Shown: positions 6,333-49,131 of the stretch, piece after piece
Numbering within the stretch: position 1 is the first letter of the stretch
Layout of the letters: every line of letters begins with the position of its first letter
Origin: a virus
Lineage: Duplodnaviria; Heunggongvirae; Uroviricota; Caudoviricetes
Virus record (IMG/VR): IMGVR_UViG_2721755676_000003
Coordinates: 1-51,015 of that record
DNA: 51,015 nucleotides
Reading direction: 5' to 3' (one strand)
Position numbers and translations under genes: made by a program
The notes under the pieces: generated by a model
What the model saw: the letters and a program-made list of their open reading frames with translations, nothing else
What the model was told of the DNA's origin: nothing
Databases searched by the model: none

Positions 6333-7265
6333 TTAGTTAAGACTTTTAATCATATAGTTACGTCTAGAGATCTTTAATCTGTCATTATGAATTTCTGTAA
6401 CGCTAGCAACCATTGATACGTGTGAGCCTACTTTAAATCTTGACTGTATTTCACTAAGCATATCAATAGGATATGATGCCTTTATCTTTCCGTCAGCGTT
6501 CACCACTTCGAGTTTGCCATACATAGAGAGCAGTGATAGCTCACCTGTGATAATTTCATTCCACGGTTTGGATATTTCCGTGAAAGCTAACCTTTTTGTG
6601 AGCCTATCAATAGCTTCTTTGTTTAAGGAAACCGAACGCCTACCTTCACTTAACGGTCCGATCCAAGATAATTCTAGTGCTAAGCCATTTCGCTCGCACT
6701 CTTCTACAATGTTTTTAAGGTTATGCGTTGAATTCGACCCAATTTCAGCAAGTTTAGAAATAAATGAATCTTCGTCAGTGGCCTCTAGTACTGAGAAAAT
6801 TTCTTTTACAGCATGGCTAGAAACCGTATCAACCAGTTCACATGCCCCTGTGGAGAACGTTACGGCTAGCTTTGTTGAACCAGGCCTCAAATCAGCCAGT
6901 CTCATATCTAGAGACTGCTTTATCCCTACAGGTACCTTGCGTGAGTCTTTTCCTGATGAAATCCGATGTACGGCTTTTTGAACTAGGCCAGCAAGGTTTC
7001 CAGAAATGACAGAAAGTAATTCCAGAGGCATAGTTCCTGCGTCAACAAGAAAACCTTTGAACCTTAACTCCATGAAATCTTGGAGCGGGTGCTCTATCTC
7101 AGCAGATCTCAGTTCAGCCCTCAAATCGCTTAAATGGGAATCTAAGCTGCGCGCTAAAATTCTGTCGGCAAGAGTCATTTCATGAGCAGGGCCGATTTTG
7201 TTCATACGATCCTGAATGAACGCAATCCTTTGTTTTAATGGTATAAATTTTGGCTCTGTGCTCAT
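6333..7265 (-). CDS. Uncharacterised 310-aa protein, second gene of NTase-led operon
   Basis: 310-aa ORF; start ATG overlaps upstream gene stop (ATGA coupling); no motif I can assign; soluble. Confidence 0.6.
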   Translation of the reverse strand: MSTEPKFIPLKQRIAFIQDRMNKIGPAHEMTLADRILARSLDSHLSDLRAELRSAEIEHPLQDFMELRFKGFLVDAGTMPLELLSVISGNLAGLVQKAVHRISSGKDSRKVPVGIKQSLDMRLADLRPGSTKLAVTFSTGACELVDTVSSHAVKEIFSVLEATDEDSFISKLAEIGSNSTHNLKNIVEECERNGLALELSWIGPLSEGRRSVSLNKEAIDRLTKRLAFTEISKPWNEIITGELSLLSMYGKLEVVNADGKIKASYPIDMLSEIQSRFKVGSHVSMVASVTEIHNDRLKISRRNYMIKSLN

Positions 7266-7735
7266 ACTACAACCCTCGCTAAACCTTTTGGCGTTTCCTC
7301 TCTATCGTATCCAAAGCACCCTCGCCAATACATCCTGTCGTTTGTATAATCAGACTTTGGATCCCCTTTGAAAAGAGGTAAAAGGTCAATATGATAATTT
7401 AACTTTATAAAATCCCTATCCAAGAGACTTTCAACCTGAGGGGCAAACATTATAGGAATGGCATTTATAGCATCAAAATCCATAACAACTAGTATATCGA
7501 CATCATCGGGATCTAGTTTTTCAGTTGTAAATGAGCCGTCTACCCAAATTTCCAGAAAGCAATTAAATTGCTTATTAAGAACGCGCAAGTTGGTAATTAA
7601 CTGTATGAAATTACAGTATAGCATGGATCTACGAGTTGACTTAGGAAAACTATCAACACATATTTTTTTCAACTGGTTGTCATCAATATCATGAAAACCT
7701 GGTGTGAAGAGTGGCGGATAGCATTTCTTAGACAT
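7262..7735 (-). CDS. Small nucleotidyltransferase-fold protein (Pol-beta/minimal NTase signature)
   Basis: 157-aa ORF containing hG[GS]-x9-DxD-hhhh signature (IWVDGSFTTEKLDPDDVDILVVMDFD) typical of minimal nucleotidyltransferases. Confidence 0.5.
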   Translation of the reverse strand: MSKKCYPPLFTPGFHDIDDNQLKKICVDSFPKSTRRSMLYCNFIQLITNLRVLNKQFNCFLEIWVDGSFTTEKLDPDDVDILVVMDFDAINAIPIMFAPQVESLLDRDFIKLNYHIDLLPLFKGDPKSDYTNDRMYWRGCFGYDREETPKGLARVVV

Positions 7736-7860
7736 AAGAAGCGTAATCCCTTACATGTTTTAATTGAGTATGTACCAACGATTTCGGCGATACAGCCGCT
7801 CTATCTAAATCTTTTGATAACTACAAATGTTCTATGCCGCAAAAAGCCTTAAACGAAGCA

Positions 7861-8244
7861 TTAATCTTCTTGAGTACGAATCCGTCCCTTCATGTACTTC
7901 TCATACAGGTCATCTAGTTCTTTCAGACGAATCGCGAAGATGCGGAGCATGTTCTGCTGCTCTTCTTCCGGTAACTGGCGGTAGAGCTCCAGCAAGCGCT
8001 GTTCGTCCGGCTTAAGTCCATCTTTTTCACCAACGTCCTCACCGAGTAACCAGGCGACAGAAATGCCTACAGCGTCGGCTATGGCCAGTGCCGATTTCTT
8101 ACTAATCACGCCTTTTTTGAACCAGCCGTTTACGGCCTGAGGAGTGACTCCAGCTATTCGTGCCAAGTCTGCTTTTGTAACGCCGCGATCAGTGATCTCA
8201 GTAAGGCGCTCTACCAGAACGAGGTTGGGTTCTTCTTTTCTCAT
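7861..8244 (-). CDS. Prophage repressor, HTH (XRE/Cro-CI family, RacR-like, no peptidase domain)
   Basis: HTH segment GVTKADLARIAGVTPQAVNGWFKKG; divergent from cro-like gene across an operator-rich intergenic region; start chosen at MRKEE (alternative ATG at 8274); the ORF-track start at 8346 is implausible because it abuts the cro start. Confidence 0.7.
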   Translation of the reverse strand: MRKEEPNLVLVERLTEITDRGVTKADLARIAGVTPQAVNGWFKKGVISKKSALAIADAVGISVAWLLGEDVGEKDGLKPDEQRLLELYRQLPEEEQQNMLRIFAIRLKELDDLYEKYMKGRIRTQED

Positions 8245-8250
8245 AGGGTC

Positions 8251-8319
8251 ATTGTAAATATTTGGTTTATACATACAATAAATCCAAGATTTGCATGAAA
8301 TATAAATCTGTGGTTTACT
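8251..8319. promoter_or_regulatory. OR-like operator/promoter region (two TAAAT-N4-GGTTTA repeats; PR candidate -35 TTGCAT, -10 TTTACT)
   Basis: Repeats at about 8255-8269 and 8304-8318; the second overlaps the candidate PR spacer/-10 upstream of the cro-like gene RBS AGGAG. Confidence 0.4.
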
Positions 8320-8346
8320 TTTGCTGTTAATAAGCAGGAGAAGCAC

Positions 8347-8574
8347 ATGTCCGCACTCGATAAAGCAATTAAAGCCGCTGGCTCAGCCAGAAAGCTCAGC
8401 ATCGCGCTTGGTGTGACGAGTATGTCTGTAAGTCATTGGAAGAATCGTGACCAAGGGATCGTCCCGCCAAGTTATATATTCCCGATTTTCAAAATGACAG
8501 GCGTAACTCCCCATGAGCTGCGCCCCGATCTCTATCCAAACCCAACAGACGGTTTACCTAAACAGGAGCCCTAA
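8347..8574 (+). CDS. Cro/YdaS-like HTH protein
   Basis: 75-aa ORF, divergent from repressor, strong RBS; HTH-like SARKLSIALGVTSMSVSHW. Confidence 0.6.
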   Translation: MSALDKAIKAAGSARKLSIALGVTSMSVSHWKNRDQGIVPPSYIFPIFKMTGVTPHELRPDLYPNPTDGLPKQEP

Positions 8575-8576
8575 CA

Positions 8577-9128
8577 ATGCAAACTGTTTCATTTCAACAG
8601 AGTAGCAGAGCTTCCTCTAATCCACTGATATTCCCATGTCATCAAAGCGAATCTGCAACGCAGGATATTGATCATCGCGATATTTGTTCTGCAGTCCGGG
8701 CGTGGGCAGCGGCAGAAGGGCGCTTAGCTGTTGCGCTTCATATCCAAGAAGCGGCGGAAGAACTTCAACTTGATGGCGTGGATTTCTCAGGCCAGGCAGA
8801 TGTCTGGAACGTGAAGCTGTTCCGTTGGTTGGACAATAAAGACGATTCCGCATCCTACCGTAGAAACGTCGAGCAACTGTTACCCGCGATCATGTCTGTA
8901 TTGCCGCTTCGATACCGCGACCGTGTCGTAAAGAACGACTCGTTTGCTTACCGAATGGCACGGCTGGAAAAAGAGGTTAGTGAGGCGAAGCAAGCGCTGA
9001 TGCTCGATGCACCAAAGAAGGAAAAGCTGAAGGAGTTAGGCGAGGGGATTTTCGAAATGTTCAGAGTCGACCCTGACCTAACGGCGCCTTTACTGGCGAT
9101 GGTCACAACCATGCTGGGGGCAATGTGA
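8577..9128 (+). CDS. YdaT-like protein (cII-position regulator)
   Basis: 183-aa ORF between cro-like and O-like genes; segment QLLPAIMSVLPLRYRDRVV resembles recalled Rac YdaT (LIPAILAILPRELRHRL). Confidence 0.45.
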   Translation: MQTVSFQQSSRASSNPLIFPCHQSESATQDIDHRDICSAVRAWAAAEGRLAVALHIQEAAEELQLDGVDFSGQADVWNVKLFRWLDNKDDSASYRRNVEQLLPAIMSVLPLRYRDRVVKNDSFAYRMARLEKEVSEAKQALMLDAPKKEKLKELGEGIFEMFRVDPDLTAPLLAMVTTMLGAM

Positions 9129-9212
9129 AGACTTCAGAAAAGGCGAAAGCCGGTCTGCGCTAACAGAACCGACTTTCAGGTGCAAAAACGGAGTGTAATT
9201 GCGGAGCTAAGT

Positions 9213-10130
9213 ATGTCAAACACAGCTGAAATTATCAATTTCCCCCACAGAACCGAACAACCGGGAGGTCGTATGGCCGAACTGTCGAACGGGTATACCA
9301 AGGTCGCAAACGAGATCCAACAGCTCAAGCCTCGTCTGAGAATGTCAGGCCGGGAGTGGCAGTGTTTTGAGGCGGTGATCTGGCTTACCTACGGCTGGAA
9401 CAAGAAACAGGACCGCGTTACGAATACAGTGATCGCCGAGCTTACTGGGCTGAGTGATTCCCACGTTTCTGATGCGCTCAAATCGCTCGCAGAACGCAAA
9501 ATTATCTTCAGTCAGAAGCAGGGTGTGATGAAAACGGTCGGTATAAATACTGACCTTTCCGCCTGGATTTTAGACAAACCGAAAACGGGAAAAGTCTTCC
9601 CGAAATCGGGAAAAGTGTTACCGAAAACGGGAAAAACCTTCCCGGAAACGGTAGACACCCAAGACTATAACAAGAACAATATTAAAATATCCTCGTCTCG
9701 GAATTCTGACGAATCCCGAAACCAGAAAACTCAAAAGTTTCTCTCACGCCATCCAGAAGCTGCCGCCGGGATATACACCCCGGCAGGTAAATCATGGGGA
9801 TCCGCTGACGACCTCAAGGCCGCTCACTGGATTTACGACAGGCTTCTCACCGTCAACGCATCGCTATCGGAACCCAACTGGGCTGAATGGGCAAACACCA
9901 TCAGGCTGATGCGTGTCCAGGACAAACGTACTCACTACGAAATCTGTGACCTGTTCCAGTGGGCCAACCGGGACGAGTTCTGGAAAGACAACATCCTGAG
10001 CCCTTCGAGTCTGCGCAAACAGTGGGATCAACTCACTACCAAGCGGCTGCGTGCAACCGCAGCGGTAAAACCATCCCGGGGCGGCATCGACCTGCACAAT
10101 ACCGACTGGATTGACGGGGTGCTGGAATGA
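9213..10130 (+). CDS. Replication initiator, lambda O-like (iterons inside gene)
   Basis: N-terminus MSNTAEIINFP...LTYGWNK resembles lambda O (MTNTAKILNF...KTYGWNK); start set at ATG 9213 with RBS GCGGAG; coding region contains iterons plus AT-rich tract. Confidence 0.7.
   Translation: MSNTAEIINFPHRTEQPGGRMAELSNGYTKVANEIQQLKPRLRMSGREWQCFEAVIWLTYGWNKKQDRVTNTVIAELTGLSDSHVSDALKSLAERKIIFSQKQGVMKTVGINTDLSAWILDKPKTGKVFPKSGKVLPKTGKTFPETVDTQDYNKNNIKISSSRNSDESRNQKTQKFLSRHPEAAAGIYTPAGKSWGSADDLKAAHWIYDRLLTVNASLSEPNWAEWANTIRLMRVQDKRTHYEICDLFQWANRDEFWKDNILSPSSLRKQWDQLTTKRLRATAAVKPSRGGIDLHNTDWIDGVLE
9581..9660. repeat. ori iterons: about 3.5 direct repeats of a 21-bp unit (GAAAACGGGAAAAGTCTTCCC-like), followed by AT-rich tract (about 9661-9693)
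   Basis: gaaaacgggaaaagtcttccc / gaaatcgggaaaagtgttacc / gaaaacgggaaaaaccttccc / ggaaacgg... read directly; encodes the KPKTGKVFPKSGKVLPKTGKTFPE peptide repeat. Confidence 0.6.
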
Positions 10131-10813
10131 AAAACATCGCAGAGAGCATTCGCGATTTTGACCGGGAACAGGCTCGCCGAATAGCGCACAACCTGCCTGA
10201 GCAGTACACCGAACGCGAGCAAACGCAACAGGTGGCCCAGATTATCAACGGGCTGTTTGTACAGCTGGCGGCCGCGTTTCCGGCAAGCCTGGTTAATCGC
10301 AGCCAAGAAGACGTGAACGAGATCCGCCGCCAGTGGGTGCTGGCCTTCAAAGAGAACGGGATCACGACCATGGATCAGGTTGAAGCGGGCATGCGCATGG
10401 TGCGCCGTCAGGAGCGACCATTCCTGCCTTCGCCAGGCCAGTTCATCAAGTGGTGCAGGGAAGGGCGCAGCGTGCTGGGGATCACCACCGCTGACGTTAT
10501 GGCTGAATACTGGAAGTGGCGCAAGCTGGTGTTCCGGTATCCGAGCAGTGAGCAGTATCCGTGGCCTAAGCCGGTCTATTATCACATCTGTCTGGAGCTG
10601 CGTCGCCGCGGAACTGATGGTCAGTTGTGTCAGAAAGAGCTTGAGCGTGAGGCTGGAGATATACTGGGTATGTGGGAAAAGCGGGTGCTGGCCGGGAAGC
10701 CGATTCCGCCCGTTCGAAGGGCTCTGGCAGCGCCGGTATCGCCGAAGGGGCCGACACCGGCAGAGCTTTTGAAAGCTAAATATCAGCGGATGAAAGCTGA
10801 TGGCAGGGCATAG
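10127..10813 (+). CDS. Replication protein P-like (helicase loader)
   Basis: 228-aa ORF, ATGA-coupled to the O-like gene; size and position match lambda P; weak recalled similarity. Confidence 0.55.
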   Translation: MKNIAESIRDFDREQARRIAHNLPEQYTEREQTQQVAQIINGLFVQLAAAFPASLVNRSQEDVNEIRRQWVLAFKENGITTMDQVEAGMRMVRRQERPFLPSPGQFIKWCREGRSVLGITTADVMAEYWKWRKLVFRYPSSEQYPWPKPVYYHICLELRRRGTDGQLCQKELEREAGDILGMWEKRVLAGKPIPPVRRALAAPVSPKGPTPAELLKAKYQRMKADGRA

Positions 10814-10875
10814 GGATGAAATGGTCAGCTATGAGCAAAGTGCGGCCACGCGGGAGCATGTTTTATCTATGAAAA

Positions 10876-11712
10876 CTAATGATGATAAATACCATCGTCT
10901 AAAGGGGGACCTTCAGCAGTAACCCCCGTGATTCTACTTGGCGGTTCAAAGATGGCCTCACCAAATATCGCATCAAACTCTGCTTTGGTGACTGATAAGT
11001 ATTGCAAGATGAGCTCTAGCAGCTCTCTGTACGTATCACAATGCCATTCAATGTGAGGACATATTTGGGAGAGAACTCTGGTCTTAAAATCATCCAGATT
11101 TTTTGGGACTTCCAGCAAGTTACCAGTGTTTAATGCTTTCGACATAAACTTGTAATTGAGCATGGAGAGAACCATTACTGATACACCTTTCTCTTGCCTT
11201 AACTGATCGAACTTCTCTTGTGCTTGAAGGCTTAGCTTGGCGTATTCGCGATCTCGTTTTGAGTTGACTGGTTCGACGTACTGAAGCGGTTCGTCTGCAG
11301 CATCACCGATACGTGGACAAAAGTATCTATTCCACCAAGCCTCAAAATACCTTTTTTGGAACTCTAGGTATGTCATCCCAATAATATTGGTGTTTTGAGT
11401 GTACTGTTTAGCACCCTGCTGAAGCCCGTGCTTTGAAATAATAAATCCAATGTTAGCCCCGGTTTCATGCATTACCGTGGTGAACGAATGGACCACCGTC
11501 TGAGGTATAGAACTACCCCAGTTTTTGCATTCCACAATGTATCTGATTTTGTCCACGCTCCTAACATCTGTAGCTAGAACATCCACATTCACCGAGCCAC
11601 GCGGTGTTTCTAAATCGACCTCGACTTCTGCAAACAAGCCAACATTACGGAATATACGTTGGACCCCTGTCTGGAGGTCTTGCCAGTTTTCTGGTAATGG
11701 GTCATCGATCAC
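10876..11712 (-). CDS. Mrr-like restriction-endonuclease-fold protein (PD-(D/E)xK) with unknown C-terminal domain
   Basis: N-terminal VDVLATDVRSVDKIRYIVECKNW (D...ExK) typical of Mrr_cat nucleases; opposite strand to the replication genes. Confidence 0.5.
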   Translation of the reverse strand: MIDDPLPENWQDLQTGVQRIFRNVGLFAEVEVDLETPRGSVNVDVLATDVRSVDKIRYIVECKNWGSSIPQTVVHSFTTVMHETGANIGFIISKHGLQQGAKQYTQNTNIIGMTYLEFQKRYFEAWWNRYFCPRIGDAADEPLQYVEPVNSKRDREYAKLSLQAQEKFDQLRQEKGVSVMVLSMLNYKFMSKALNTGNLLEVPKNLDDFKTRVLSQICPHIEWHCDTYRELLELILQYLSVTKAEFDAIFGEAIFEPPSRITGVTAEGPPLDDGIYHH

Positions 11713-12046
11713 TTTTACTTTTCCTATGCACTATCCGCATGCTTTTAAGACTACTTGAAGACACAAACGTCGTCATCCACTAAAAGGTTCAAATTTGAGA
11801 TGATAGTTCGTTTCTGGTATGAAACGAACCGTTTGAAGAGCCGAGTGCTCTGCTAAGAGCCAGGAGTGGACGTTCTCAAAGCATTGCTTACATCGAGGAT
11901 GTATTAATCAACGGGGTGCAGGTCAATTGATCCATAAAAGGTTGAATGCTCTATACTAAGCACTAGTAAAAAACATTGCACAACATACACTTAAGGTTTA
12001 AATTGCTTATCACCAAAACATAAATTTAATCATAGGCTGATGGCGT

Positions 12047-13510
12047 ATGCTAAAGGTAATTAAAAAAGGTATTGGCTTCAATAAAACAGAAAAAAGATTG
12101 ATTGAATTAGCTAATAATGCCTTTATAGGTTTGTGGTCATATCCTAATGTTTATAGTGATGAGGGTTTTGCAAAAAATAAATCGGGTAAAGAAGTGTGTG
12201 ATTTATTAGTGGTTTTTGAAAATAATGTAATTTTGTTTTCTGATAAAGACATTAAGTTTAATGATGAAATTGATATCCATATTGCATGGAAAAGATGGTT
12301 TAGGAGAGCAGTAATCGAATCAGCGACTCAACTGCATGGAGCTGAAAAATTTCTAAAAGAGCAAAGTGACAGATTATTTCTTGATAAAGAGTGTAAGGAG
12401 AGGTTTCCAATAACAATTGACAATAAGATGCGCTTTTTTTTGATCGCAGTAACTAGCAATAGCGCAATTCCAGCTTTCAATTACTTTGGTCGTATCGCGG
12501 AAGGAAGTTCTGGAACTTTAGTAAATTGCTTTCCCTTTGGAATAAAGGAAAGTATGGAGCAACCTTTTACTGTTGGAGATTTGTATCCTGATAAGACATT
12601 TATCCATGTTTTAGATGAACTATCGTTAAAATTACTATTCTCTGAGCTGGATACAATTACTGACTTCGTTGACTATTTAAAAGAGAAAGAACGAGTCGTG
12701 AGGACAGGTTTTCTTGGATTAAGTCCTGGTGAGGATGACACACTGGGTGCCTACTTGATCGGGCATGGATTAATAGTAGATGAAAAGAAGGTGCCAAAAA
12801 ACTCGTTTGTTCGAATTGCAGAGCATGAATGGACTGAACTAAAAAAATCGCAATTATATGAATATTATACAGCTCTAAAAAAAGGTAGCTATTTTTGGGA
12901 TGAAACAGTACAACGTTTTTCCGATTCCATATTAAATGCAACTGTTGGTCTAGGTAAGGAAAATGACTTTCTTAGTCATGAGGAAACATTAAGACAATTA
13001 GCCTCTGAAAGCAGAGAATCAAGATATTATTTATCTAAATCATTCTTGGATAAATTCAAGCAAGTTCCTTCTGACAGAAGAAGCTCCAGAATCGTAGAGT
13101 CTTTAGATGAAAAAGGAAAGTTTTATATTTTTTTGTTTTTTCCGCGTGAAAAACATTTATCATATGAGGAATATAGAAACGAACGTTTTTCTTGCATTCA
13201 AATGTATGCGTTAACAGCTAAATATAAATACCCACAAATAAAAAAACTCATAGTCATTGCTACTGAAAGTAAAGACTCCGAAGGTCGTTCAGAGGATGTG
13301 GTATTTTGTCGATTTGATAACCCCCTTTCAAAAGGCGAACGTCTGTTTGTACAATCAGTGATGCACGAATATAGCATACTTACTGATTTCATTCCAAAAC
13401 CGAACAATAAATTAAATTTGTCACCGATAGTTAAAAGTGACAAGAAACCTGGAAGGAATGAACCTTGTTTTTGTGGATCTGGTATAAAATATAAAAAATG
13501 CCATGGATAG
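12047..13510 (+). CDS. SEC-C motif protein of unknown function (AT-rich cargo)
   Basis: 487-aa ORF ending in CFCGSGIKYKKCHG (SEC-C metal-binding motif); strongly AT-rich relative to phage backbone. Confidence 0.6.
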   Translation: MLKVIKKGIGFNKTEKRLIELANNAFIGLWSYPNVYSDEGFAKNKSGKEVCDLLVVFENNVILFSDKDIKFNDEIDIHIAWKRWFRRAVIESATQLHGAEKFLKEQSDRLFLDKECKERFPITIDNKMRFFLIAVTSNSAIPAFNYFGRIAEGSSGTLVNCFPFGIKESMEQPFTVGDLYPDKTFIHVLDELSLKLLFSELDTITDFVDYLKEKERVVRTGFLGLSPGEDDTLGAYLIGHGLIVDEKKVPKNSFVRIAEHEWTELKKSQLYEYYTALKKGSYFWDETVQRFSDSILNATVGLGKENDFLSHEETLRQLASESRESRYYLSKSFLDKFKQVPSDRRSSRIVESLDEKGKFYIFLFFPREKHLSYEEYRNERFSCIQMYALTAKYKYPQIKKLIVIATESKDSEGRSEDVVFCRFDNPLSKGERLFVQSVMHEYSILTDFIPKPNNKLNLSPIVKSDKKPGRNEPCFCGSGIKYKKCHG

Positions 13511-13955
13511 AAAATTAGCATAATTCTATTAACTCATTGCCATTATCTTGACAAAACTAAATGGAAACTTGTCATATTTATTTCTTGAAAATATTTAATT
13601 ACTGGCTGTAGCAACTTTAACTTAGTGCGGGCATAGCTATGAATCTCCGATTGTACTGGCAGGGGGCTACAACTTTAGATGACTCACTCCCATCTTCAAC
13701 AAGCTAGCTGGCTGCCTTGTGTTGCGAGGATTCGTAATGATGATGTCAGTTTTGTCCGCTTCTGGCAAGAGGCGGACGAGATGGCTAGGCTTAAGACCTG
13801 CTGAAAGCCAGGAGCTGACATCACTACAACTTTTAATGCTAACTTCACTTAAAATAATTTTGGAATTTGCACATATGGGTTATATAAGTAAATCATCGCA
13901 ATGAGTTCTATGCGATAATTTTATATTTAGTCCCCATCTTTATCGGATGGTTCAT

Positions 13956-14729
13956 CTAAGCTTTAACTCGCCTGACAAGAGTTTTACTGCAACCTATACT
14001 GAGAAGGTGGCGTCGAAGATTTTTATCAATATGACTATCCAACGTGGTAATTAAAAACACTATATCCTCAATAACCTTAACAACATCCGAGCTTGATATT
14101 TTAGTGAGGCTTACCTTTGGTCTGTCACAATTATGGATACAATCATGTCTCCTCTGAATTAGCGAAGTATATCTGTTAGTTAGCTTTTCTAACATAGATT
14201 TCCGTTTTTTTTCTTTATCCTCTTTGGATAACTTTTTGTAAGCTGTTGGAGTGGTTCCCATAAGACGATGCTTCGCTGACTTATTTATCAACCAGTCCTC
14301 CATCATCGGCTTTGTTAATATTTTGTTTTTTTCATCCATGATATGATTGAACAAATCCTTAATTTTATCGATTGAAAGTACGTTATCTTTTTCAATCAAG
14401 TCACGTGCTGCATTTCGCCATTTCCAATTCGAAGTTGTATTCTGAGCATTCACGATAGAATTTATAGGTAACTTCAATGACCTTATCTTTGGGCTTAATT
14501 TGACATTGCTGTCAATGCTTTTTGCAATTAGGATTTTTGATAACACATCTGCAAATGCATCACAAAAATATGCATCAAGTGCTCCAATCGCAATCATCCA
14601 AGAGGCTCTATATATATCATCCTTTAGAGTCGATATAGGTAATGAATCAGCATGAGCTATAAGGTCTTTTGCTCTATTAATATCCTGATTAAAATGACTT
14701 AACGCTGTGCTTGGCATATAACACCTCAA
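13956..14729 (-). CDS. HEPN-like protein (candidate abortive-infection RNase)
   Basis: 257-aa ORF with C-terminal R-x4-H motif (LIQRRHDCIHNCDRPK) in a helical, lysine-rich protein; AT-rich. Confidence 0.4.
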   Translation of the reverse strand: MRCYMPSTALSHFNQDINRAKDLIAHADSLPISTLKDDIYRASWMIAIGALDAYFCDAFADVLSKILIAKSIDSNVKLSPKIRSLKLPINSIVNAQNTTSNWKWRNAARDLIEKDNVLSIDKIKDLFNHIMDEKNKILTKPMMEDWLINKSAKHRLMGTTPTAYKKLSKEDKEKKRKSMLEKLTNRYTSLIQRRHDCIHNCDRPKVSLTKISSSDVVKVIEDIVFLITTLDSHIDKNLRRHLLSIGCSKTLVRRVKA

Positions 14730-15040
14730 AATAAATGATTTATATGGTTAATTGGAAATGCAAAACTTAAATTTTAGTTTATACCGTTTGTTGCCAGAAT
14801 ACGATATATTCACAGATTCTAGACCATTAACATTGGCACTACAGCCAGATAATGAGTTTGAACGTACACCGTAGTATACTTTCTGATCTGCCCACCCCAA
14901 AAAAATTAGTACTATCTGGATTACCACAGTCCGCTCTTGTCACCCAAATGTTATTTTACCTTAATGACATTAGATTTCATTTGGATCAGATTGCCGCAAC
15001 TATCAGTGTGCGGCAAGTAGCTGAAGCATTCATAGAGTAT

Positions 15041-16285
15041 TTATGGGTCAAGGAGGGATTTAAACTGAGATATGGGATAGTCATATCGTTCGTTATAGAA
15101 TGCCGCAAGCTTGCAGTATTCTGCTAGGTGAGCATCTGGCCTGTATGGGACAATCGCTCCTTCAATCGATAGCTCAATACTATTAGTGACAATCAACATC
15201 AAGGCATGATCTTTAGTAAATAGTTGTTCTGAAAGTAAACGATATTTATTTTTAGGCTCGGAAATAGTTTTGAATGATTCGAACGTGTCATTAATAAACT
15301 GAAGTGCCAATGCTCCAGGTCGTTTTCCTGTCAGTTGTTTTTTTAACGCCCGCTTAGATACTTTCTCAACCTCTTTCCAAATTTGTACATCACCTGCGGA
15401 TACGACCCGAATTCCCTTTAATCGATGCTCAGAGTCATGGCAGGCCACTAACGCTGCTGTGGAGCCATGGAGTGTTTGTGCTGCATTGAAGACTACATTC
15501 TCATCAGTTTTATCTCCCAATAATGGGCAAAATTCTTCAACAACAGAAAACTTTTCGCTGTGTATATCGTTGCCTTGAGTTTCAATCTCGTCTACTAGGC
15601 GAGCCATAAATTCTTTGAAGCTTTTATCGTTCTTAGGCACAGGTTCCGTCAAAATGATGGTCAAGATACTTGCGAATCCTTCCTTTGCAGTGAGAAGTCT
15701 GTCGAGCGAGATTTTTTCCAGCAAAGCACCAATCAAGCGATGCCCATCTGCAAGACTAACAGCAAAACCTTTATCACCTGCGAAGGATTTGCACTCAAGC
15801 TCAAATGGAGGAAGCCCTTGAGGTGGGTAGACTAGAAGGTCAAAGGTCTCCTCGCCTTTACTTTCCTCTGGCCATTCAATGGAGCACCCCCTGGAGATTA
15901 GTGTTTTGGCCATATATAACTCGTACTGCAAAGCGCGCATGTCGCTGGCAAGCTTGAACGCACCCTCGAAACGTTTTTTGAGTTCCCTGGGGCCTGGTTC
16001 ACCTCTTTCCACTGCTTCACACAGTTCCACCACTCGCTGCACAAATAACATTGTCTGGAACATTGTATTCCATTCGTATCCCGCATTTAATGCATACTGA
16101 TTTCTATCCCAAAACGTCAAACCGAATGCTACTGAGTTTTCTAATTCTTCCTGTCCACCACGTCCAGCAAATTGATTTGAAAGTAACTTTATGTCCTGAA
16201 CGACCTTCAGCCAAGGCTTTAAAGGGAAAAGCTTGACTAAACGGTTATAAATATCAGGGAAGCTAAGCATAATGAGGGGCATCAA
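15041..16285 (-). CDS. Hypothetical 414-aa protein with PD-(D/E)xK-like motif
   Basis: ETFDLLVYPPQGLPPFELECKSF (D...E-x-K) suggests a nuclease fold; otherwise unrecognised. Confidence 0.45.
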   Translation of the reverse strand: MMPLIMLSFPDIYNRLVKLFPLKPWLKVVQDIKLLSNQFAGRGGQEELENSVAFGLTFWDRNQYALNAGYEWNTMFQTMLFVQRVVELCEAVERGEPGPRELKKRFEGAFKLASDMRALQYELYMAKTLISRGCSIEWPEESKGEETFDLLVYPPQGLPPFELECKSFAGDKGFAVSLADGHRLIGALLEKISLDRLLTAKEGFASILTIILTEPVPKNDKSFKEFMARLVDEIETQGNDIHSEKFSVVEEFCPLLGDKTDENVVFNAAQTLHGSTAALVACHDSEHRLKGIRVVSAGDVQIWKEVEKVSKRALKKQLTGKRPGALALQFINDTFESFKTISEPKNKYRLLSEQLFTKDHALMLIVTNSIELSIEGAIVPYRPDAHLAEYCKLAAFYNERYDYPISQFKSLLDP

Positions 16286-16790
16286 ATATTATCTCCTTAG
16301 GTCAGCGCTTAAACAAAACTCCATCTTTAATACAACGTTTAATCTGCAAGAGCATACTACAGTGAATATCTGGGCGTCATATGCCCAATGCCCGAAAGCA
16401 TAATATGTATGCCTTTTAGCTGAAACTGGCCTTCACTCTGCAGACCTGAATACGTCACAAGCAAGGACCAGAGTAGTATCGGCATTGGTTGTGAAATCTT
16501 TAATTCACATGATGAGAGCATTATGCAACGGGTACTTTAACGATGATACCGAAGCGAGAACCTTTCTTGCAGGTTCTCGCTATAGGGCTTGGTAATAGCA
16601 TGTTGCTTGTCAGTCATGCCACATACCCAAACGTTCATTCTTGCTTCCGCTTTAAAACACTCAATCCACAGAAACTACAAGTCTTCACGCTGGAAGTAAC
16701 CTGTTGTTTGTTTGGGGGGCACATAATCTCAGTAAGTTACATTGTGATCTCATAAAACGTTGCAAAATCCGTTACATAAGTTTATAAAAG

Positions 16791-16828: not shown

Positions 16829-17053
16829 ATGAAAATCGAGCTAACCATTGATCGCATGAAGAAACTTCCTGATGGAGCTATACCTGCGCTCGAGTCAGAA
16901 CTGCTCGAAAGACTCAGCAAGCAGTTTGATGATTGCCAGCTTACGATTAGGCGTGCCAGTAATGATGGTTTGACTGTTTTCTGGGGCGACAAGAAAGAGG
17001 TCGAACATATCGTGCAGGAGACCTGGGAAAGCGCGGACGAGTGGTTTTATTAA
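16829..17053 (+). CDS. dinI: DinI-family protein
   Basis: MKIELTIDR...VQETWESADEWFY matches recalled E. coli DinI (MRIEVTIAK...LQETWESADDWF); start at internal ATG with RBS GAGGGA. Confidence 0.8.
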   Translation: MKIELTIDRMKKLPDGAIPALESELLERLSKQFDDCQLTIRRASNDGLTVFWGDKKEVEHIVQETWESADEWFY

Positions 17054-35704: not shown

Positions 35705-36508
35705 ATGAAAAAAATTGTAGGTGTGTTATTTCTTTCCTTCTTATTAGCTGGGTGCGATAAACCTAAAATTGACTCATCAACTGATGAAGCAATGAAATCA
35801 TCTATAGCCAAGGTCAGAGAATCACTTCCGGAAAATAAACGGGAGGAATTTGATAGCGCTTTAAAGGTCGTAGCGTTCAGTAACATTAATATGGCTGACC
35901 TAATGCGAGCATCGTCAGAAAGTGACAAAGAAGATCTAAGCAAGAAGATGCGCGAGCCCCTGTCAGGCAAAACTGGAGAGGAAATCATCTCTTATGCTCA
36001 GCAAGTAACTGCCGAGAGGGAACTTAAGCAGAAAGAGCAGGCAATTCAGGAAATCAAAGAGCTTGAACAGAAAAAAGCTGACTCTGAGAAGGCTAAAGAA
36101 GAACTCAAAAAAGTACAGGTTCTATCATCTCGATTTAGCCTGGAACCTGAAGAGTATGGGAAGCCACAACCTATTATTCGCCTTGTTGTGAAAAACAATA
36201 CTGATAAAGCTATTTCCCGTGTGTACTTCAATGGAGTGATAGCCAGCGATGGACGTTCAGTTCCATGGCTGGAAAAAGATTTTAACTACGAAATTGCTGG
36301 CGGGCTTGAACCGGGTGAAGAAGCTACTTGGGCATTGGCTCCGAATAAGTTTTCTGAATGGGGTCAGGTTGATGCTCCAGCTGATGCGGTCTTCACAGTT
36401 ACAGTAACGAGAGTCAATGGGGCAAATAAAGAAGCGATGTTTGATGCTTCCGGCTTTACAGAGCAAGAAAACAGCAGGCTTGAAGATTTAAAGAAAAGAT
36501 ACCTTTGA
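35705..36508 (+). CDS. Lipoprotein of unknown function (moron inserted between tape-measure and M genes)
   Basis: Signal peptide plus lipobox (MKKIVGVLFLSFLLAGC); Lys/Glu-rich coiled region; AT-rich; own terminator. Confidence 0.6.
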   Translation: MKKIVGVLFLSFLLAGCDKPKIDSSTDEAMKSSIAKVRESLPENKREEFDSALKVVAFSNINMADLMRASSESDKEDLSKKMREPLSGKTGEEIISYAQQVTAERELKQKEQAIQEIKELEQKKADSEKAKEELKKVQVLSSRFSLEPEEYGKPQPIIRLVVKNNTDKAISRVYFNGVIASDGRSVPWLEKDFNYEIAGGLEPGEEATWALAPNKFSEWGQVDAPADAVFTVTVTRVNGANKEAMFDASGFTEQENSRLEDLKKRYL

Positions 36509-38449: not shown

Positions 38450-39127
38450 GTGAGGCGAGTACCAAATACTAGTTCTAACTATATAAATAGTGATGAATAC
38501 AATGATTTATTTCATGATCATATGGACAAGGCTTTAGAGCGAGCTCTTGATACTAGAAAGTTTGAAATTGATCTATATTGGCGTCGCGCCACCTATTTTT
38601 GGACGTTCATAGGTGCTACATTCGGTGGGTTCTTTGTCGCATACGCTTCAACCTCACCTAAAAGGCAAGACTTATTAGTTATTCTTTGTTGTTTGGGGGT
38701 GGCTTTCTCGTTTGCATGGTTTTGTGTTAATAAAGGCAGTAAATACTGGCAAGAGAACTGGGAGAAGCACGTCGATCTTCTTGAAAATAAGTCGATTGGT
38801 CCATTGTATAAAATTGTCCTAACAAGAAATGAAGATATGACACTCCGGCAAAAAGCTTTTGATGTAATAACGGGTCCTGCAGCTTTATCAGTCTCGAAAA
38901 TTAATCAATTGATTAGCCTGTTTGTGTTAATGCTTTGGGTTGTGTTGCTTGTGAATTCCTTACTTCCGTTGGATTTCAACCTTCCATTTAAATGGTTTTA
39001 TATCATTCTTGTATTTACAACTATTCTTTTTTGCGGATTGGTAATGCTGCTAGGACGTACATATCATGGAGGGCATTATCATTTGGCAACGCTGAGGCAA
39101 TCTCGAATAAAACCTGAATCGGAATAG
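38450..39127 (+). CDS. Multi-pass membrane protein of unknown function (moron between K and I; candidate abortive-infection or exclusion effector)
   Basis: AT-rich ORF with several predicted TM helices (YFWTFIGATFGGFFVAYAS; LLVILCCLGVAFSFAWFCV; LISLFVLMLWVVLLV; FYIILVFTTILFCGLVMLL); start uncertain (GTG 38450 or ATG 38522); own terminator. Confidence 0.5.
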   Translation: MRRVPNTSSNYINSDEYNDLFHDHMDKALERALDTRKFEIDLYWRRATYFWTFIGATFGGFFVAYASTSPKRQDLLVILCCLGVAFSFAWFCVNKGSKYWQENWEKHVDLLENKSIGPLYKIVLTRNEDMTLRQKAFDVITGPAALSVSKINQLISLFVLMLWVVLLVNSLLPLDFNLPFKWFYIILVFTTILFCGLVMLLGRTYHGGHYHLATLRQSRIKPESE

Positions 39128-46792: not shown

Positions 46793-46929
46793 ATCTGCTC
46801 ACATAGAGTTTAGGCAATAAAATTTACAAAACTCGTAATCCGAAGCGACATAGAAACTTATAAACGAAACGGCGAAGCTTTAAACAATCAGGATAGGTCC
46901 TCTGTCTTGCATGCATACCCAAATGAAAC

Positions 46930-46949
46930 TACTGTATATAAAGACAGTA
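46930..46949. promoter_or_regulatory. LexA (SOS) box upstream of umuD
   Basis: TACTGTATATAAAGACAGTA (CTGT-N8-ACAG) about 15 nt upstream of the umuD ATG. Confidence 0.7.
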
Positions 46950-46964
46950 CAAAAGGTGTGCACT

Positions 46965-47384
46965 ATGGAATTTATCAGGCCTGCGGAACTGCGTGAAATT
47001 CTCGCTCTCCCGCTTTTCAGTGACTTAGTTCAGTGTGGTTTCCCAAGTCCAGCAGCTGATTACGTTGAACAACGTATCGATCTCAATGAGTTACTTGTCG
47101 CTCACCCGAGCTCAACGTATTTCGTCAAAGCCGCGGGCGATTCTATGATCGAAGCCGGGATCAGCGACGGTGATCTGCTGGTAGTGGACAGTTCCAGGAC
47201 TGCTGAGCATGGTGACATTGTCATCGCTGCGGTGGAAGGGGAGTTCACTGTTAAACGCCTGCAGCTGCGCCCGACCGTGCAACTCAATCCTATGAACAGC
47301 GCCTACAGTCCGATTGTTGTTGGCAGTGAAGACACACTGGACGTGTTTGGCGTTGTTACTTTCATCGTTAAATCTGCGAGCTGA
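46965..47384 (+). CDS. umuD: UmuD (Pol V accessory subunit, LexA-like S24 self-cleaving peptidase)
   Basis: [72 protein letters not shown]... near-identical to recalled E. coli UmuD; includes the Cys-Gly cleavage site and Ser/Lys dyad. Confidence 0.9.
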
Positions 47385-47386
47385 AC

Positions 47387-48655
47387 ATGTTTGCGCTCTG
47401 TGATGTGAATTCGTTTTACGCATCATGCGAGACGGTGTTTCGGCCCGATTTGAGAGGGCGGCCAGTAGTTGTTCTCTCGAATAATGACGGCTGCGTAATC
47501 GCGCGCAGCGCCGAGGCCAAAGCCGCCGGAATTACCATGGGAGAGCCTTTCTTTAAGCAAAAGGATCTATTCCGGCGCGCTGGTGTTGTTTGCTTCAGCA
47601 GTAACTACGAGCTGTACGCAGACATGTCGAACCGGGTAATGACGACGCTTGAGGAAATGAGCCCCCGCGTCGAAATTTACAGTATCGATGAAGCTTTTTG
47701 CGACCTGACTGGCGTTCGCAACTGCCGGGACCTGACTGACTTCGGCAAAGAAATTCGTTCTACGGTTCTAAAGCGTACGCACCTGACGGTTGGGGTTGGA
47801 ATTGCGCAGACAAAAACGCTCGCTAAGCTGGCCAATCACGCCGCGAAGAAGTGGCAGAGGCAGACGGGTGGAGTTGTTGATTTGTCCAATATCGATCGCC
47901 AGCGTCGGTTATTGGCAATTGTGCCTGTGGAGGATGTCTGGGGCGTCGGCAGGCGCATCAGTAAGAAGCTAAACGCCATGGGCATCAAAACGGCTCTGGA
48001 TCTCTCAGAACAAAGCACATGGATTATCCGTAAACATTTTAACGTGGTACTCGAGCGAACGGTCCGGGAGTTGCGCGGAGAGCCTTGTCTTGAGCTGGAG
48101 GAGTTTGCGCCGGCAAAGCAGGAAATCGTCTGCAGCCGATCGTTCGGCGAGCGCGTCACGGACTATGAGCAGATGCGTCAGGCTATCTGCAGCTATGCGG
48201 CGCGTGGCGCCGAAAAGCTTCGCGGCGAGCATCAGTATTGCCGTTTTATCTCGGCGTTCGTTAAGACGTCACCTTTTGCCCTGAATGAGCCATATTACGG
48301 TAATAGTGCGTCCATGAAGCTTCTTACTCCCACTCAGGATTCCCGCGACATCATCAACGCCGCGGTAAAGTGCCTGAACAAAATCTGGAAGGACGGCCAC
48401 CGCTATCAAAAAGCAGGAATCATGCTTGGGGATTTTTTCAGCCATGGTGTGGCTCAGCTCAACTTGTTCGATGAGAACGCGCCGCGCGAAGACAGCGCGC
48501 AACTGATGCAGATCCTTGACCAGCTCAATGCCAAAGGAGGAAAGGGCACACTCTACTTTGCAGGGCAGGGAATTCAGCAACAATGGCAGATGAAGCGAGA
48601 AATGCTTTCTCCGCGGTATACGACCCGCTTCCAGGATTTATTAATTGTTAAATAA
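47387..48655 (+). CDS. umuC: UmuC (Y-family translesion DNA polymerase V catalytic subunit)
   Basis: [41 protein letters not shown]... canonical UmuC N-terminus; 422 aa. Confidence 0.92.
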
Positions 48656-48723
48656 ATGCAGGACATTATGGTCAAAATAAAGTATCTTATTCAGGCACTT
48701 ATAAATACTTAAATGGAATTGAT

Positions 48724-49131
48724 ATGTTAAAACCTATTCTCGCATTAGCAGTTCTTACCTTATCTGGGTGTGCAATTATCCAAGAGCCTCCAAAACATGG
48801 CACTCCTGACGCTGTATATACGACTAAGAGCGATGCAAAAAGCGTTGCATTATGCATTGCTGATGTCTTTGCAGATTACGACCCTTACATCAAAGCTCGC
48901 TATAAAGAAGAATTCTGGGGTTATAAAATTAATTATTCCGCCGGGCAATATGGCGAAGCTGAAATTTACAAGAAAAATAACGTTACCACTGTGAATTATT
49001 TTGGTCAGAATAATTCAGACAAGAAAATGGTAAAGCATCTTAAAGACGGCATCCAAAAATGTGTAAATAAGGTGTACGACATGTCTCCAGTGGGTGGTAA
49101 GCAGCCAGATGGAAGCGTAAAACTCTGGTAA
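48724..49131 (+). CDS. Lipoprotein of unknown function
   Basis: Signal peptide plus lipobox (LAVLTLSGC); AT-rich. Confidence 0.55.
   Translation: MLKPILALAVLTLSGCAIIQEPPKHGTPDAVYTTKSDAKSVALCIADVFADYDPYIKARYKEEFWGYKINYSAGQYGEAEIYKKNNVTTVNYFGQNNSDKKMVKHLKDGIQKCVNKVYDMSPVGGKQPDGSVKLW

What the first reader, a model, noticed from the sequence alone, without database searches (positions are those of the whole stretch)
10876..16285. AT-rich four-gene accessory island between replication (P) and nin (dinI) modules: candidate defence island
Seen: four ORFs in mixed orientation, each with its own intergenic spacer and visibly AT-rich (especially 12047-14729) against a roughly balanced phage backbone. 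They encode an Mrr-like nuclease, a SEC-C-motif protein, a HEPN-like protein and a PD-(D/E)xK-like 414-aa protein. Established knowledge: the region downstream of the replication genes in lambdoid phages is a known hotspot for morons and anti-phage cargo. Inference: one or more of these are defence or abortive-infection genes, possibly acting together.
Basis: partly seen in the sequence, partly recalled or inferred. Interest (0 to 1): 0.75.

Follow-up and report, generated by a model that had tools for sequence, protein, structure and literature searches.

The report
Four nuclease genes in prophage hotspot
A variable cargo slot of a lambda-like prophage holds four unrelated, separately acquired nuclease genes that are probably stand-alone anti-phage defence genes, none of them experimentally characterised, and not one four-gene system.

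Summary
Four intact ORFs in mixed orientation lie between replication gene P and DinI. The region has GC 0.385 against 0.51 for the rest of the window, about 5.7 SD below any other stretch of that size. All four domain guesses were right. ORF1 is an Mrr_cat nuclease. ORF2 is a FokI/BspD6I-like PD-(D/E)xK nuclease with a C-terminal SEC-C zinc tail. ORF3 is a RiboL-PSP-type HEPN protein. ORF4 is a PD-(D/E)xK nuclease from an uncurated family.

In 40 sister phages with the same P and DinI genes, this slot holds 28 different gene sets. They include Dsr1 and other recognised defence genes, and also ordinary morons.

The four genes never co-occur outside this phage lineage. ORF1 moves as a 1.1-kb cassette into P2-like prophages. 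ORF2 sits alone in P4-satellite hotspots. ORF4 lies beside TIR and SMC-type genes in other genera.

The best reading is four independent single-protein sensor–nuclease defence candidates. "Acting together" is not supported, and no defence phenotype has been shown. One ORF2 homologue scores very highly in DefensePredictor, and DS-23 is a validated analogue.

This is a good experimental lead, not a new kind of system.

The parts
10127..10813 (+). Replication gene P; conserved left border of the slot
   Evidence: PF06992, 8e-48. 80 phage contigs carry it at 91-98% aa identity. Homology with sister phages ends at 10806-10848.
10849..16445 (.). Hypervariable cargo slot (the island), 5.6 kb, GC 0.385
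   Evidence: Breakpoints from blastn against 80 sister loci. Composition. In 40 sister phages the same slot holds 28 architectures and 95 protein families.
10824..11925 (-). ORF1 cassette: the gene plus 51 bp downstream and 208 bp upstream, shared with copies in P2-like prophages
   Evidence: 96% nt identity to E. coli P2-like prophages over exactly this span. The flanks match at 84% and 94%.
10876..11712 (-). ORF1, 278 aa: N-terminal Mrr_cat PD-(D/E)xK nuclease (residues 9-111; D44, E61-C-K63) plus a C-terminal domain of about 165 aa with no match
   Evidence: Pfam PF04471, 4.3e-11, 43.4 bits against a cutoff of 21. The C-terminal part has no Pfam hit at E<=1. PADLOC gives only a weak PDC-S02 hit, 3e-5.
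12047..13510 (+). ORF2, 487 aa: N-terminal FokI/BspD6I-like PD-(D/E)xK nuclease (E49, D52, S65-D66-K67), a large middle region with no match, a disordered linker (448-465) and a C-terminal SEC-C zinc motif (466-487)
13956..14717 (-). ORF3, 253 aa: RiboL-PSP-type HEPN protein (predicted RNase), Rx4H motif R190-H195
   Evidence: More than 693 homologues. 34 of 41 aligned members hit PF18735. RRHDCIHNCDRP is invariant. Start codon follows the gene calls.
15041..16285 (-). ORF4, 414 aa: helical N-terminal domain, PD-(D/E)xK core (E122, D149, E164-C-K166), C-terminal alpha/beta domain with a QLTGxRPG motif; from an uncurated family
14989..15036 (-). 3' flank of ORF4, shared with the Pectobacterium copy (edge of the cassette)
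   Evidence: 90% identity over 48 nt to L043, just downstream of the ORF4 homologue.
16829..17053 (+). DinI-like gene; first gene of the conserved right border (DinI-orf80-DUF1367-RusA-Q)
   Evidence: PF06183, 1.4e-21. Called as 74 aa. Present downstream of the slot in 40 of 49 sister loci that have enough downstream sequence.

Best explanation
The region is the hypervariable cargo slot between replication gene P and the DinI/nin-type genes of a Rac-like lambdoid prophage of Enterobacteriaceae. In this lineage four unrelated single-gene cassettes have accumulated there, each acquired separately. Each encodes a nuclease effector fused to otherwise unrecognisable domains: three different PD-(D/E)xK DNase-type proteins (ORF1, ORF2, ORF4) and one HEPN RNase-type protein (ORF3). 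The most likely function of each is a stand-alone, prophage-borne defence or superinfection-exclusion protein of the sensor-plus-nuclease type. In that model the non-catalytic domains hold the nuclease inactive until a signal from an infecting phage releases it, and it then cuts invading or cellular DNA (ORF1, ORF2, ORF4) or RNA (ORF3). ORF2's SEC-C tail may tether or regulate it through a SecA-type metal-binding interaction. Shown here: the folds, the conserved catalytic residues, the hotspot, and the independent mobility of the genes. Inferred: expression from their own promoters in the lysogen, the anti-phage role, the triggers and the substrates.
For: 1) Hotspot. 49 phage contigs with the same P gene (91-98% aa) have at least 1.5 kb downstream, and 40 of them also carry the same DinI-orf80-DUF1367 module. 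P-to-DinI distances run from 2.4 to 9.4 kb, with 28 architectures and 95 protein families, and none contains ORF1-4. Other occupants include Dsr1 (E=0), PDC-S15, NsnB, AriA/PtuA-type ATPases, a MADS component, SIR2_2, KAP_NTPase and HEPN_Toprim_N.
2) Foreign composition. GC is 0.385 against 0.51, with two GC3 classes among the four genes.
3) Independent mobility. ORF1 occurs as a 1.1-kb cassette with its own upstream region in P2-like prophages and other phages. ORF2 occurs alone at the cargo end of P4-like satellites and in other phages, always at GC of about 0.35. ORF4 lies next to a PNP_UDP-TIR protein in Pectobacterium and in an integrase island with a CTD3 + SMC/AAA_23 system in Yersinia. 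An ORF3 homologue lies beside GmrSD_N plus a second HEPN gene in Enterovibrio.
5) Precedent. An ORF2 homologue (E 1e-41) has a DefensePredictor log-odds of 13. DS-23 is a validated single protein with a PD-(D/E)xK-type core motif and a C-terminal SEC-C zinc finger; validation status. 13 of 31 further validated DS systems carry PD-(D/E)xK domains and 4 carry HEPN domains. 6 of 8 randomly chosen unknown P4-hotspot loci protected against phages. A single-gene 'SEC-C' entry is listed among P4 hotspot occupants.
Against: None of the four families has a measured defence phenotype. None matches a known defence system in PADLOC 2023 beyond weak or motif-only hits. The slot also carries non-defence morons in sister phages, such as a fimbrial usher/chaperone operon, EAL/BLUF, glyoxalase, MFS and LysR genes, so location alone does not prove defence. 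In DefensePredictor's control set, remote defence homologues with low scores, including six PD-(D/E)xK nucleases, almost never protected (1 of 24), so fold alone is weak evidence. Consensus promoter and terminator scans found no more sites than shuffled sequence gives, so autonomous expression is unproven. One island copy (L030) has a split ORF2 and a truncated ORF3, which shows the genes can be lost.
Confidence: 0.62

Rival explanations
1. The four genes form one integrated multi-component defence system, for example a sensor plus effectors that need each other.
For: They are always found together, with identical order, in at least 22 contigs of this phage lineage, even where the immunity, integrase and late modules differ.
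Against: Those copies are identical or nearly so, which shows linkage and not independent evidence of coupling. Outside the lineage there is no co-occurrence at all. The 10 ORF4-family genome loci (10-kb flanks) and three further ORF4 homologues (7-kb flanks) lack ORF1-3. The 82 plus 3 ORF3-family loci lack ORF1, ORF2 and ORF4. ORF1 and ORF2 relatives have unrelated neighbours. Orientation is mixed, the spacers are 320-445 bp, there are two GC3 classes, and ORF1 and ORF4 have separate cassette borders.
Confidence: 0.05
2. They are selfish or non-defence morons: toxin-like addiction modules that stabilise the prophage, or lysogenic-conversion genes unrelated to phage immunity.
For: The slot carries clearly non-defence cargo in sister phages. 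Distant ORF3 relatives have a toxin-antitoxin-like layout with a small acidic upstream partner. Nucleases are typical toxins, and the best structural match of ORF4 is the CdiA-CT toxin family.
Against: No antitoxin-like partner is present for any of the four genes here. No RNA antitoxin-like repeats or Rfam hits were found. The same genes sit in hotspots where most tested unknown loci turned out to be defensive. A homologue of ORF2 scores very high as a defence gene. Addiction and defence are also not mutually exclusive.
Confidence: 0.2
3. They serve the phage's own lytic cycle, for example host-DNA degradation, recombination or anti-restriction functions, analogous to the ren/nin genes that occupy this position in lambda.
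For: Their position lies inside the early rightward transcription unit between P and Q, and ORF2 is co-directional with it.
Against: Three of the four genes point against early transcription. Sister phages with the same replication and late genes lack all four. The genes also occur in non-phage chromosomal islets and integrase islands. Their composition is foreign to the backbone.
Confidence: 0.07
4. The island is decaying horizontally acquired DNA with no current function.
For: One copy shows frameshifted or truncated ORF2 and ORF3 (L030). The DNA is AT-rich and likely to be silenced.
Against: All four ORFs are intact in the window and in nearly all copies. Catalytic motifs are invariant across hundreds of diverged homologues, which indicates purifying selection on each family.
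Confidence: 0.05

Closest known systems
Prophage and satellite defence hotspots (P4 psu-int locus, P2 old/tin and Z/fun loci; Rousset et al. 2022, PMC9122126; NAR 2026, PMC13586616)
   Same: A fixed site between conserved core genes whose content is swapped among close relatives. It carries known defence systems plus many unknown genes. ORF2-type genes sit in the P4 hotspot, and a 96%-identical ORF1 copy sits in a variable site of P2-like prophages.
   Different: This slot lies in a lambdoid (Rac-like) phage between P and DinI, is not adjacent to cos, and also holds metabolic and fimbrial morons. That the P2 site between the tail-fibre assembly and sheath genes is the Z/fun locus rests on my own background knowledge, not on a tool result.
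DS-23 (DefensePredictor; WP_020231147.1; 719 aa; experimentally validated single-protein system; PMC13092281)
   Same: A single protein with a PD-(D/E)xK-type core motif and a C-terminal SEC-C zinc finger, as in ORF2. The paper's tables give its nearest remote relative as an Upx/Mrr-type restriction endonuclease.
   Different: It is not detectably homologous to ORF2 (hhalign probability 0.4%). In DS-23 the nuclease sits in the middle of a longer protein, whereas in ORF2 it is N-terminal.
Single-protein immune nucleases with a PD-(D/E)xK effector and variable sensor domains (Shedu SduA, Upx, Can2/Card1, NucC, Avs nuclease heads, HamA)
   Different: There is no sequence-level relationship. The non-catalytic domains match nothing. 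No CARF, SAVED, NTPase or helicase partner is present.
Mrr / type IV restriction endonucleases (Pfam Mrr_cat)
   Same: ORF1 has a bona fide Mrr_cat catalytic domain with D...ExK.
   Different: It has no Mrr_N DNA-binding domain. The nuclease is N-terminal and is followed by an unknown 165-aa domain.
HEPN abortive-infection and toxin proteins (RiboL-PSP family PF18735 of Anantharaman et al. 2013; single-gene Abi HEPN proteins; DS-11; RnlA/LsoA-type toxin-antitoxin pairs)
   Same: ORF3 has an invariant Rx4H motif and belongs by homology to the RiboL-PSP HEPN family. Distant members have a toxin-antitoxin-like small upstream partner.
   Different: The enterobacterial clade, including ORF3, has no partner gene. 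The family has no experimental characterisation that I could find; one unrelated paper mentions the name.
Rugutis (lactococcal single-gene antiphage protein with a SEC-C motif; PMC11381338)
   Same: A validated antiphage protein whose only recognisable feature is a SEC-C motif.

Membership tests
Mrr_cat nuclease domain (PF04471), for ORF1 | HMM score above Pfam's gathering threshold | tested here: met
   43.4 bits against a cutoff of 21, E 4.3e-11, residues 9-111.
Mrr_cat nuclease domain (PF04471), for ORF1 | PD-(D/E)xK catalytic triad D...(D/E)xK | tested here: met
   D44 and E61-C62-K63 (VNVDVLATD...YIVECKNW), read from the translation.
Type IV restriction enzyme Mrr (full protein), for ORF1 | N-terminal winged-helix Mrr_N DNA-binding domain followed by a C-terminal Mrr_cat domain | tested here: not met
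   No Mrr_N hit. The nuclease is N-terminal and the C-terminal 165 aa match nothing at E<=1.
YecA family (the name given to ORF2 homologues by PGAP) | Score above the NCBIfam or YecA-type model cutoff over the whole protein | tested here: not met
   Only the last 20-50 residues (the SEC-C motif) match. All NCBIfam scores (13-33 bits) are far below their cutoffs of 68-267.
SEC-C metal-binding motif (PF02810), for ORF2 | C-terminal Cys-rich zinc motif scoring above the gathering threshold | tested here: met
   37.3 bits against 20.4, residues 470-487. C474, C476 and C485 are invariant. The motif matches the SecA and YchJ metal-binding tails in the PDB.
PD-(D/E)xK nuclease fold, FokI/BspD6I type, for the ORF2 N-terminal domain | Structural match of the alpha-beta-beta-beta-alpha-beta core | tested here: met
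PD-(D/E)xK nuclease fold, FokI/BspD6I type, for the ORF2 N-terminal domain | Canonical D...(D/E)xK catalytic residues | tested here: inconclusive
   E49, D52, S65 and K67 are invariant in 43 sequences, which gives D...SxK with Ser in the acidic position. The Pandoraea homologue has F-D-R at this position.
HEPN_RiboL-PSP (PF18735), for ORF3 | HMM hit of the protein itself | tested here: not met
   The window protein gives no Pfam hit at E<=0.1 or E<=0.01.
HEPN_RiboL-PSP (PF18735), for ORF3 | Full-length homology to proteins that do pass the model | tested here: met
   38-89% identity over the full length to family members, of which 34 of 41 hit PF18735, best E 7.7e-11.
HEPN superfamily, for ORF3 | Conserved Rx4-6H catalytic motif | tested here: met
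   R189-R190-H191-D192-C193-I194-H195 is invariant in 41 sequences.
HEPN toxin with cognate antitoxin (type II TA-like pair), for ORF3 | Adjacent co-oriented partner gene | tested here: not met
   A partner of about 100 aa is present in 47 of 82 distant loci. It is absent from the window, from all island copies and from the 61-78% identical relatives, even at HMM E<=10.
PD-(D/E)xK nuclease superfamily, for ORF4 | E...D...ExK motif conserved across the family, and a structural core match | tested here: met
Any known or candidate defence system in PADLOC-DB 2.0 | Significant full-length HMM match | tested here: not met
   ORF1 gives a weak PDC-S02 hit (3e-5, 65 residues). ORF2 gives motif-only hits. 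ORF3 and ORF4 give none. 63 ORF4-family members give none.
DS-23 (validated DefensePredictor system) | Sequence homology to WP_020231147.1 | tested here: not met
   hhalign of the ORF2 profile against the first 399 residues of DS-23 that I could recover gives probability 0.4%. Only the active-site strands align.
One multi-gene defence system comprising ORF1-4 | Conserved co-occurrence of the components across diverged genomes | tested here: not met
   There is no co-occurrence outside the near-identical island copies.
Anti-phage defence gene (functional class) | Reduced plating or plaque size of some phage when the gene is expressed | not testable with these tools
   This needs cloning and phage challenge.

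The most novel reading that the evidence does not exclude
At least one of the four families is a new single-protein immune nuclease with a previously unseen way of sensing infection. The best candidates are ORF4 (about 860 clusters at 50% identity, no curated model anywhere) and ORF2 (whose SEC-C tail could couple a FokI-like nuclease to the ribosome or SecB). Separately, the partner-less enterobacterial HEPN clade may have replaced an acidic antitoxin with built-in autoinhibition. The stacking of three DNases and one RNase in one slot might also give layered or synergistic protection.
Probability: 0.3. Interest if true: 0.65.

Novelty: new member of a known kind. Interest (0 to 1): 0.5.

Why it matters
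The finding gives four concrete candidates for new single-gene anti-phage systems, each cloneable at 0.8-1.5 kb. It also documents a defence-rich swap site in a lambdoid prophage family, between P and DinI, comparable to the well-studied P2 and P4 hotspots. ORF4 defines a sizeable protein family with no curated model. The ORF2 family is widespread in Enterobacteriaceae satellites and already has a high machine-learning defence score but, as far as I could find, no published test. The ORF3 family offers a natural comparison between HEPN proteins with and without a small acidic partner. If validated, these genes would add to the catalogue of prophage-borne immunity and help predict phage-therapy resistance in Enterobacter and E. 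coli. The concept itself is established, so the value lies in new members, not a new principle.

Tried and rejected
1) One four-gene system. Rejected on the lack of co-occurrence.
2) ORF4 plus ORF3 as an operon, since both are on the minus strand. No ORF3-like gene lies near any ORF4 homologue, and the gap is 323 bp.
3) A conserved partner for ORF4. The 281- and 284-aa neighbours in Yersinia and Pectobacterium are unrelated to each other and to ORF1-3.
4) A conserved partner for ORF1. The 317-aa P2-site neighbour travels with the 97% copy in three contigs, but it is absent from the window and from more distant ORF1 loci. The similar-sized neighbours in L221 and L225 show no significant similarity to it.
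5) A remnant of the acidic HEPN partner in the 323-bp spacer upstream of ORF3. There is no HMM hit even at E<=10.
6) An RNA antitoxin, sRNA or repeat elements in the spacers. There are no Rfam hits at E<=1, no tandem repeats, and no convincing terminal direct or inverted repeats. The short D1 repeat that flanks ORF2 does not extend.
7) Homology among the three PD-(D/E)xK proteins. hhalign finds only the active-site strands.
8) Domain-wise Pfam scans of the unassigned parts of ORF1, ORF2 and ORF4 at E<=1 found nothing.
9) Sequence relatives among solved structures. None, apart from the SEC-C tail.
10) PHB10 as an empty-site comparator. Its post-P region carries metabolic genes and may be host flank, so it was not used for boundaries.
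11) Consensus promoter and terminator scans gave no more sites than shuffled sequence.
12) Linking Rousset's WP_053286111 to the ORF2 cluster by accession. It could not be confirmed from the listed members.


Full report
OBSERVATION

The window is a Rac-like lambdoid prophage. Reading left to right it carries an integrase, RecT/RecE, a repressor, YdaS/YdaT, O and P, then DinI, DUF1367, RusA, the Q antiterminator, lysis genes and structural genes. Four ORFs lie between P (10127-10813) and DinI (16829-17053):

- ORF1: 10876-11712 (-), 278 aa.
- ORF2: 12047-13510 (+), 487 aa.
- ORF3: 13956-14717 (-), 253 aa.
- ORF4: 15041-16285 (-), 414 aa.

The spacers between them are 334, 445 and 323 bp. The slot has GC 0.385 against 0.51 for the rest of the window. 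No other stretch of the same size falls below 0.467 (mean 0.511, SD 0.022).

WHAT EACH GENE ENCODES

ORF1 has a genuine Mrr_cat domain at its N-terminus (43.4 bits against a cutoff of 21), with D44 and E61-C-K63. Its C-terminal 165 residues match nothing.

ORF3 gives no Pfam hit on its own. It belongs to a family of more than 693 proteins, and 34 of 41 aligned members hit HEPN_RiboL-PSP. The motif RRHDCIHNCDRP is invariant and contains the HEPN Rx4H signature.

The three PD-(D/E)xK proteins are not detectably related to one another beyond the active-site strands. None of the four families has a sequence relative among solved structures, apart from the SEC-C tail. All four genes therefore encode predicted nucleases.

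THE SLOT IS A HOTSPOT

I fetched 80 phage contigs encoding the same P protein (91-98% identity). Of these, 49 extend at least 1.5 kb past P, and 40 also carry the same DinI-orf80-DUF1367 module, mostly followed by RusA and Q (at least 90% identity in most cases). In those contigs the P-to-DinI distance ranges from 2.4 to 9.4 kb. The 40 resolved slots contain 95 protein families in 28 architectures, and none contains ORF1-4.

Their contents include PADLOC Dsr1 (E = 0), PDC-S15, NsnB, AriA/PtuA-type ATPases and a MADS component. Pfam adds SIR2_2, KAP_NTPase, HEPN_Toprim_N, FRG and AAA_15/21. The slots also hold a fimbrial usher/chaperone operon, EAL/BLUF, glyoxalase, MFS and LysR genes. The site is a general cargo hotspot that is rich in defence genes but not exclusive to them.

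Homology with the sister phages ends at 10806-10848 and resumes at 16446 or about 16749. The island has no terminal repeats, tandem repeats or Rfam matches. It looks like recombinational module exchange, not a transposon or an integrative element.

ONE SYSTEM OR FOUR?

The identical block occurs in at least 22 contigs, always between P and DinI, in prophages that differ in immunity region, integrase and late genes. That shows linkage within a young lineage and nothing more. In diverged contexts the genes separate completely.

ORF1 is found at 96% nucleotide identity in E. coli P2-like prophages, between the tail-fibre assembly and tail-sheath genes. The shared DNA runs exactly from 10824 to 11925, which includes 208 bp upstream of the gene. 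More distant relatives (48-92% identity) sit in other phages with unrelated neighbours, including a DUF2971 protein (the Aristaios family) and a HEPN_RES_NTD1 protein.

ORF2 relatives (74% nucleotide identity) sit alone at the cargo end of P4-like satellites, next to delta/psu. Others (43-58% amino-acid identity) lie in further phage contigs, one of them near the tail sheath and tube genes of a P2-like phage. Only the ORF2-type gene is shared among these contexts, and its GC stays near 0.35 in hosts of GC 0.46-0.54.

ORF4 homologues lie beside a PNP_UDP-TIR protein and a transposase in Pectobacterium. In Yersinia the gene is in an integrase-bounded island next to a CTD3 + SMC/AAA_23 three-gene system. 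In Klebsiella it sits in a small islet. No ORF1, ORF2 or ORF3 homologue lies within 7-10 kb of any of these.

ORF3 relatives were examined in 85 loci, and none has ORF1, ORF2 or ORF4 nearby. The 78%-identical Enterovibrio copy sits next to GmrSD_N and a second RiboL-PSP HEPN gene.

The mixed orientation, long spacers, two GC3 classes and separate cassette borders all point the same way: four independent acquisitions.

A TWIST IN THE ORF3 FAMILY

In distant environmental members (38-47% identity), 47 of 82 loci carry a conserved, acidic protein of about 100 aa, encoded 10-70 bp upstream on the same strand. This is a toxin-antitoxin-like layout, and the partner has no Pfam match. The partner is absent from the window, from every island copy and from the 61-78% identical relatives in Enterovibrio, Aeromonas and Methylophilus. 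ORF3 therefore belongs to a solitary clade. If it is an active RNase, it must be held in check in some other way.

MECHANISM (INFERRED)

The most economical reading is that each gene encodes a self-contained sensor-plus-nuclease protein of the kind now common among prophage-borne defences. The non-catalytic domains would keep the nuclease inactive until infection. The nuclease would then cut DNA (ORF1, ORF2, ORF4) or RNA (ORF3), either destroying the invader or aborting the infection.

Three of the genes oppose the early rightward operon. Transcription toward Q during lytic growth would therefore run head-on into them. That fits lysogen-expressed morons that are shut off on induction, but it has not been tested, and consensus promoter scans were uninformative.

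ORF2's SEC-C tail resembles the SecA and YchJ metal-binding tails. Whether it tethers the nuclease to the ribosome or SecB, or instead binds nucleic acid, is open.

WHAT IS KNOWN

P4 and P2 hotspots are established reservoirs of defence systems (PMC9122126). In a 2026 study, 6 of 8 randomly chosen P4-hotspot loci of unknown function protected against phages (PMC13586616). Rousset's supplementary table lists a single-gene "SEC-C" occupant of the P4 hotspot in many E. coli genomes. I could not confirm by accession that it belongs to the ORF2 family, and the main text does not mention SEC-C, so I found no sign that it was tested.

DefensePredictor (PMC13092281) assigns log-odds 13.05 to WP_150671509.1. 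I show that this protein is an ORF2 homologue: 28% identity over 419 aa, E 1e-41. The validated system DS-23 is a single 719-aa protein with a PD-(D/E)xK-type core motif and a C-terminal SEC-C zinc finger. It is not homologous to ORF2 (hhalign probability 0.4%), so it is an analogue and not a family member.

The same paper reports that 13 of 31 further validated systems have PD-(D/E)xK domains and 4 have HEPN domains. It also reports that remote defence homologues with low scores, six PD-(D/E)xK nucleases among them, almost never protect (1 of 24). Fold alone is therefore not proof. Rugutis, a lactococcal antiphage protein, is another SEC-C-motif precedent. I found no experimental work on the RiboL-PSP HEPN family.

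VERDICT

It is best explained as a lambdoid cargo hotspot loaded with four independent single-gene nuclease cassettes that are probably defence genes. "Acting together" is not supported, and a defence function is plausible but unproven. In kind this is known biology: prophage defence hotspots and single-protein immune nucleases. The specific families are uncharacterised, and ORF4's is not curated anywhere. That makes the island a good, directly testable lead of moderate interest.

Noticed in passing
window 6333-7735 (-): A second AT-rich accessory pair lies co-oriented downstream of the repressor gene, in the position rexAB occupies in lambda. It consists of a DUF6932 protein of 157 aa (PADLOC PDC-M63A, 9e-40) overlapping by 4 nt a 310-aa protein (PDC-M63B, 9e-44). 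Sister phages replace this pair with a 431-aa gene or with 148- and 131-aa genes, so it looks like a second swap site.
   Followed up: partly
L051-L130 (for example L051:2499-2810, L071:5625-5936): Distant RiboL-PSP HEPN genes (38-47% identical to ORF3) have a conserved acidic protein of about 95-105 aa encoded 10-70 bp upstream on the same strand in 47 of 82 loci. Its consensus includes ...LVEVYNELFPEKP...DLWNVVFPEDRNVYYDEEE.... It has no Pfam match. This looks like an undescribed antitoxin-like partner family, and it is missing from the enterobacterial clade.
   Followed up: partly
L001:9183-10136 (-); also L215-L217; L225:4977-5933: The 317-aa gene that accompanies the 97%-identical ORF1 copy, in P2-like prophages and in one phage that is not P2-like, contains FNKIRNKIVH, an Rx4H HEPN-like motif. 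A 318-aa neighbour of a 48%-identical ORF1 relative contains NKFRNYIEH. The two are not significantly similar and have no Pfam hit. ORF1-type nucleases may pair recurrently with HEPN-like proteins.
   Followed up: partly
L030 (GCA_043235345.1), 6997-9666: One copy of the island is decaying: ORF2 is split into 338 + 102 aa and ORF3 is truncated to 175 aa, while ORF1 and ORF4 remain intact.
   Followed up: no
L024 (GCA_032503705.1), 10900-13990: One relative carries two P genes (228 and 232 aa) separated by a 183-aa gene, which suggests a recombination scar at the left edge of the slot.
   Followed up: no
window 46911-49817 and 50497-51015: Near the right end lie a UmuD/UmuC-like pair (IMS, IMS_C and DUF4113 on the 422-aa protein) and an SRAP protein, followed by CinA. 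CinA is probably host flank.
   Followed up: no
window 35705-36508 and 38450-39127: Two further AT-rich patches within the tail region encode a DUF6694 protein and an 8xMP octameric membrane protein. These are probable morons.
   Followed up: no
L134 (phage PHB10, MK524177.1), 8063-14643: In the deposited PHB10 genome, the region just after P carries MdaB, an aldo/keto reductase, two LysR regulators, an amidohydrolase and a gluconolactonase. This is either unusual metabolic cargo or host DNA included in the record.
   Followed up: no
window 13639-13802: Part of the ORF2-ORF3 spacer matches a non-coding stretch of another sister phage's slot (L202) at 72% identity. It may be a remnant of earlier cargo or a shared recombination site.
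   Followed up: partly
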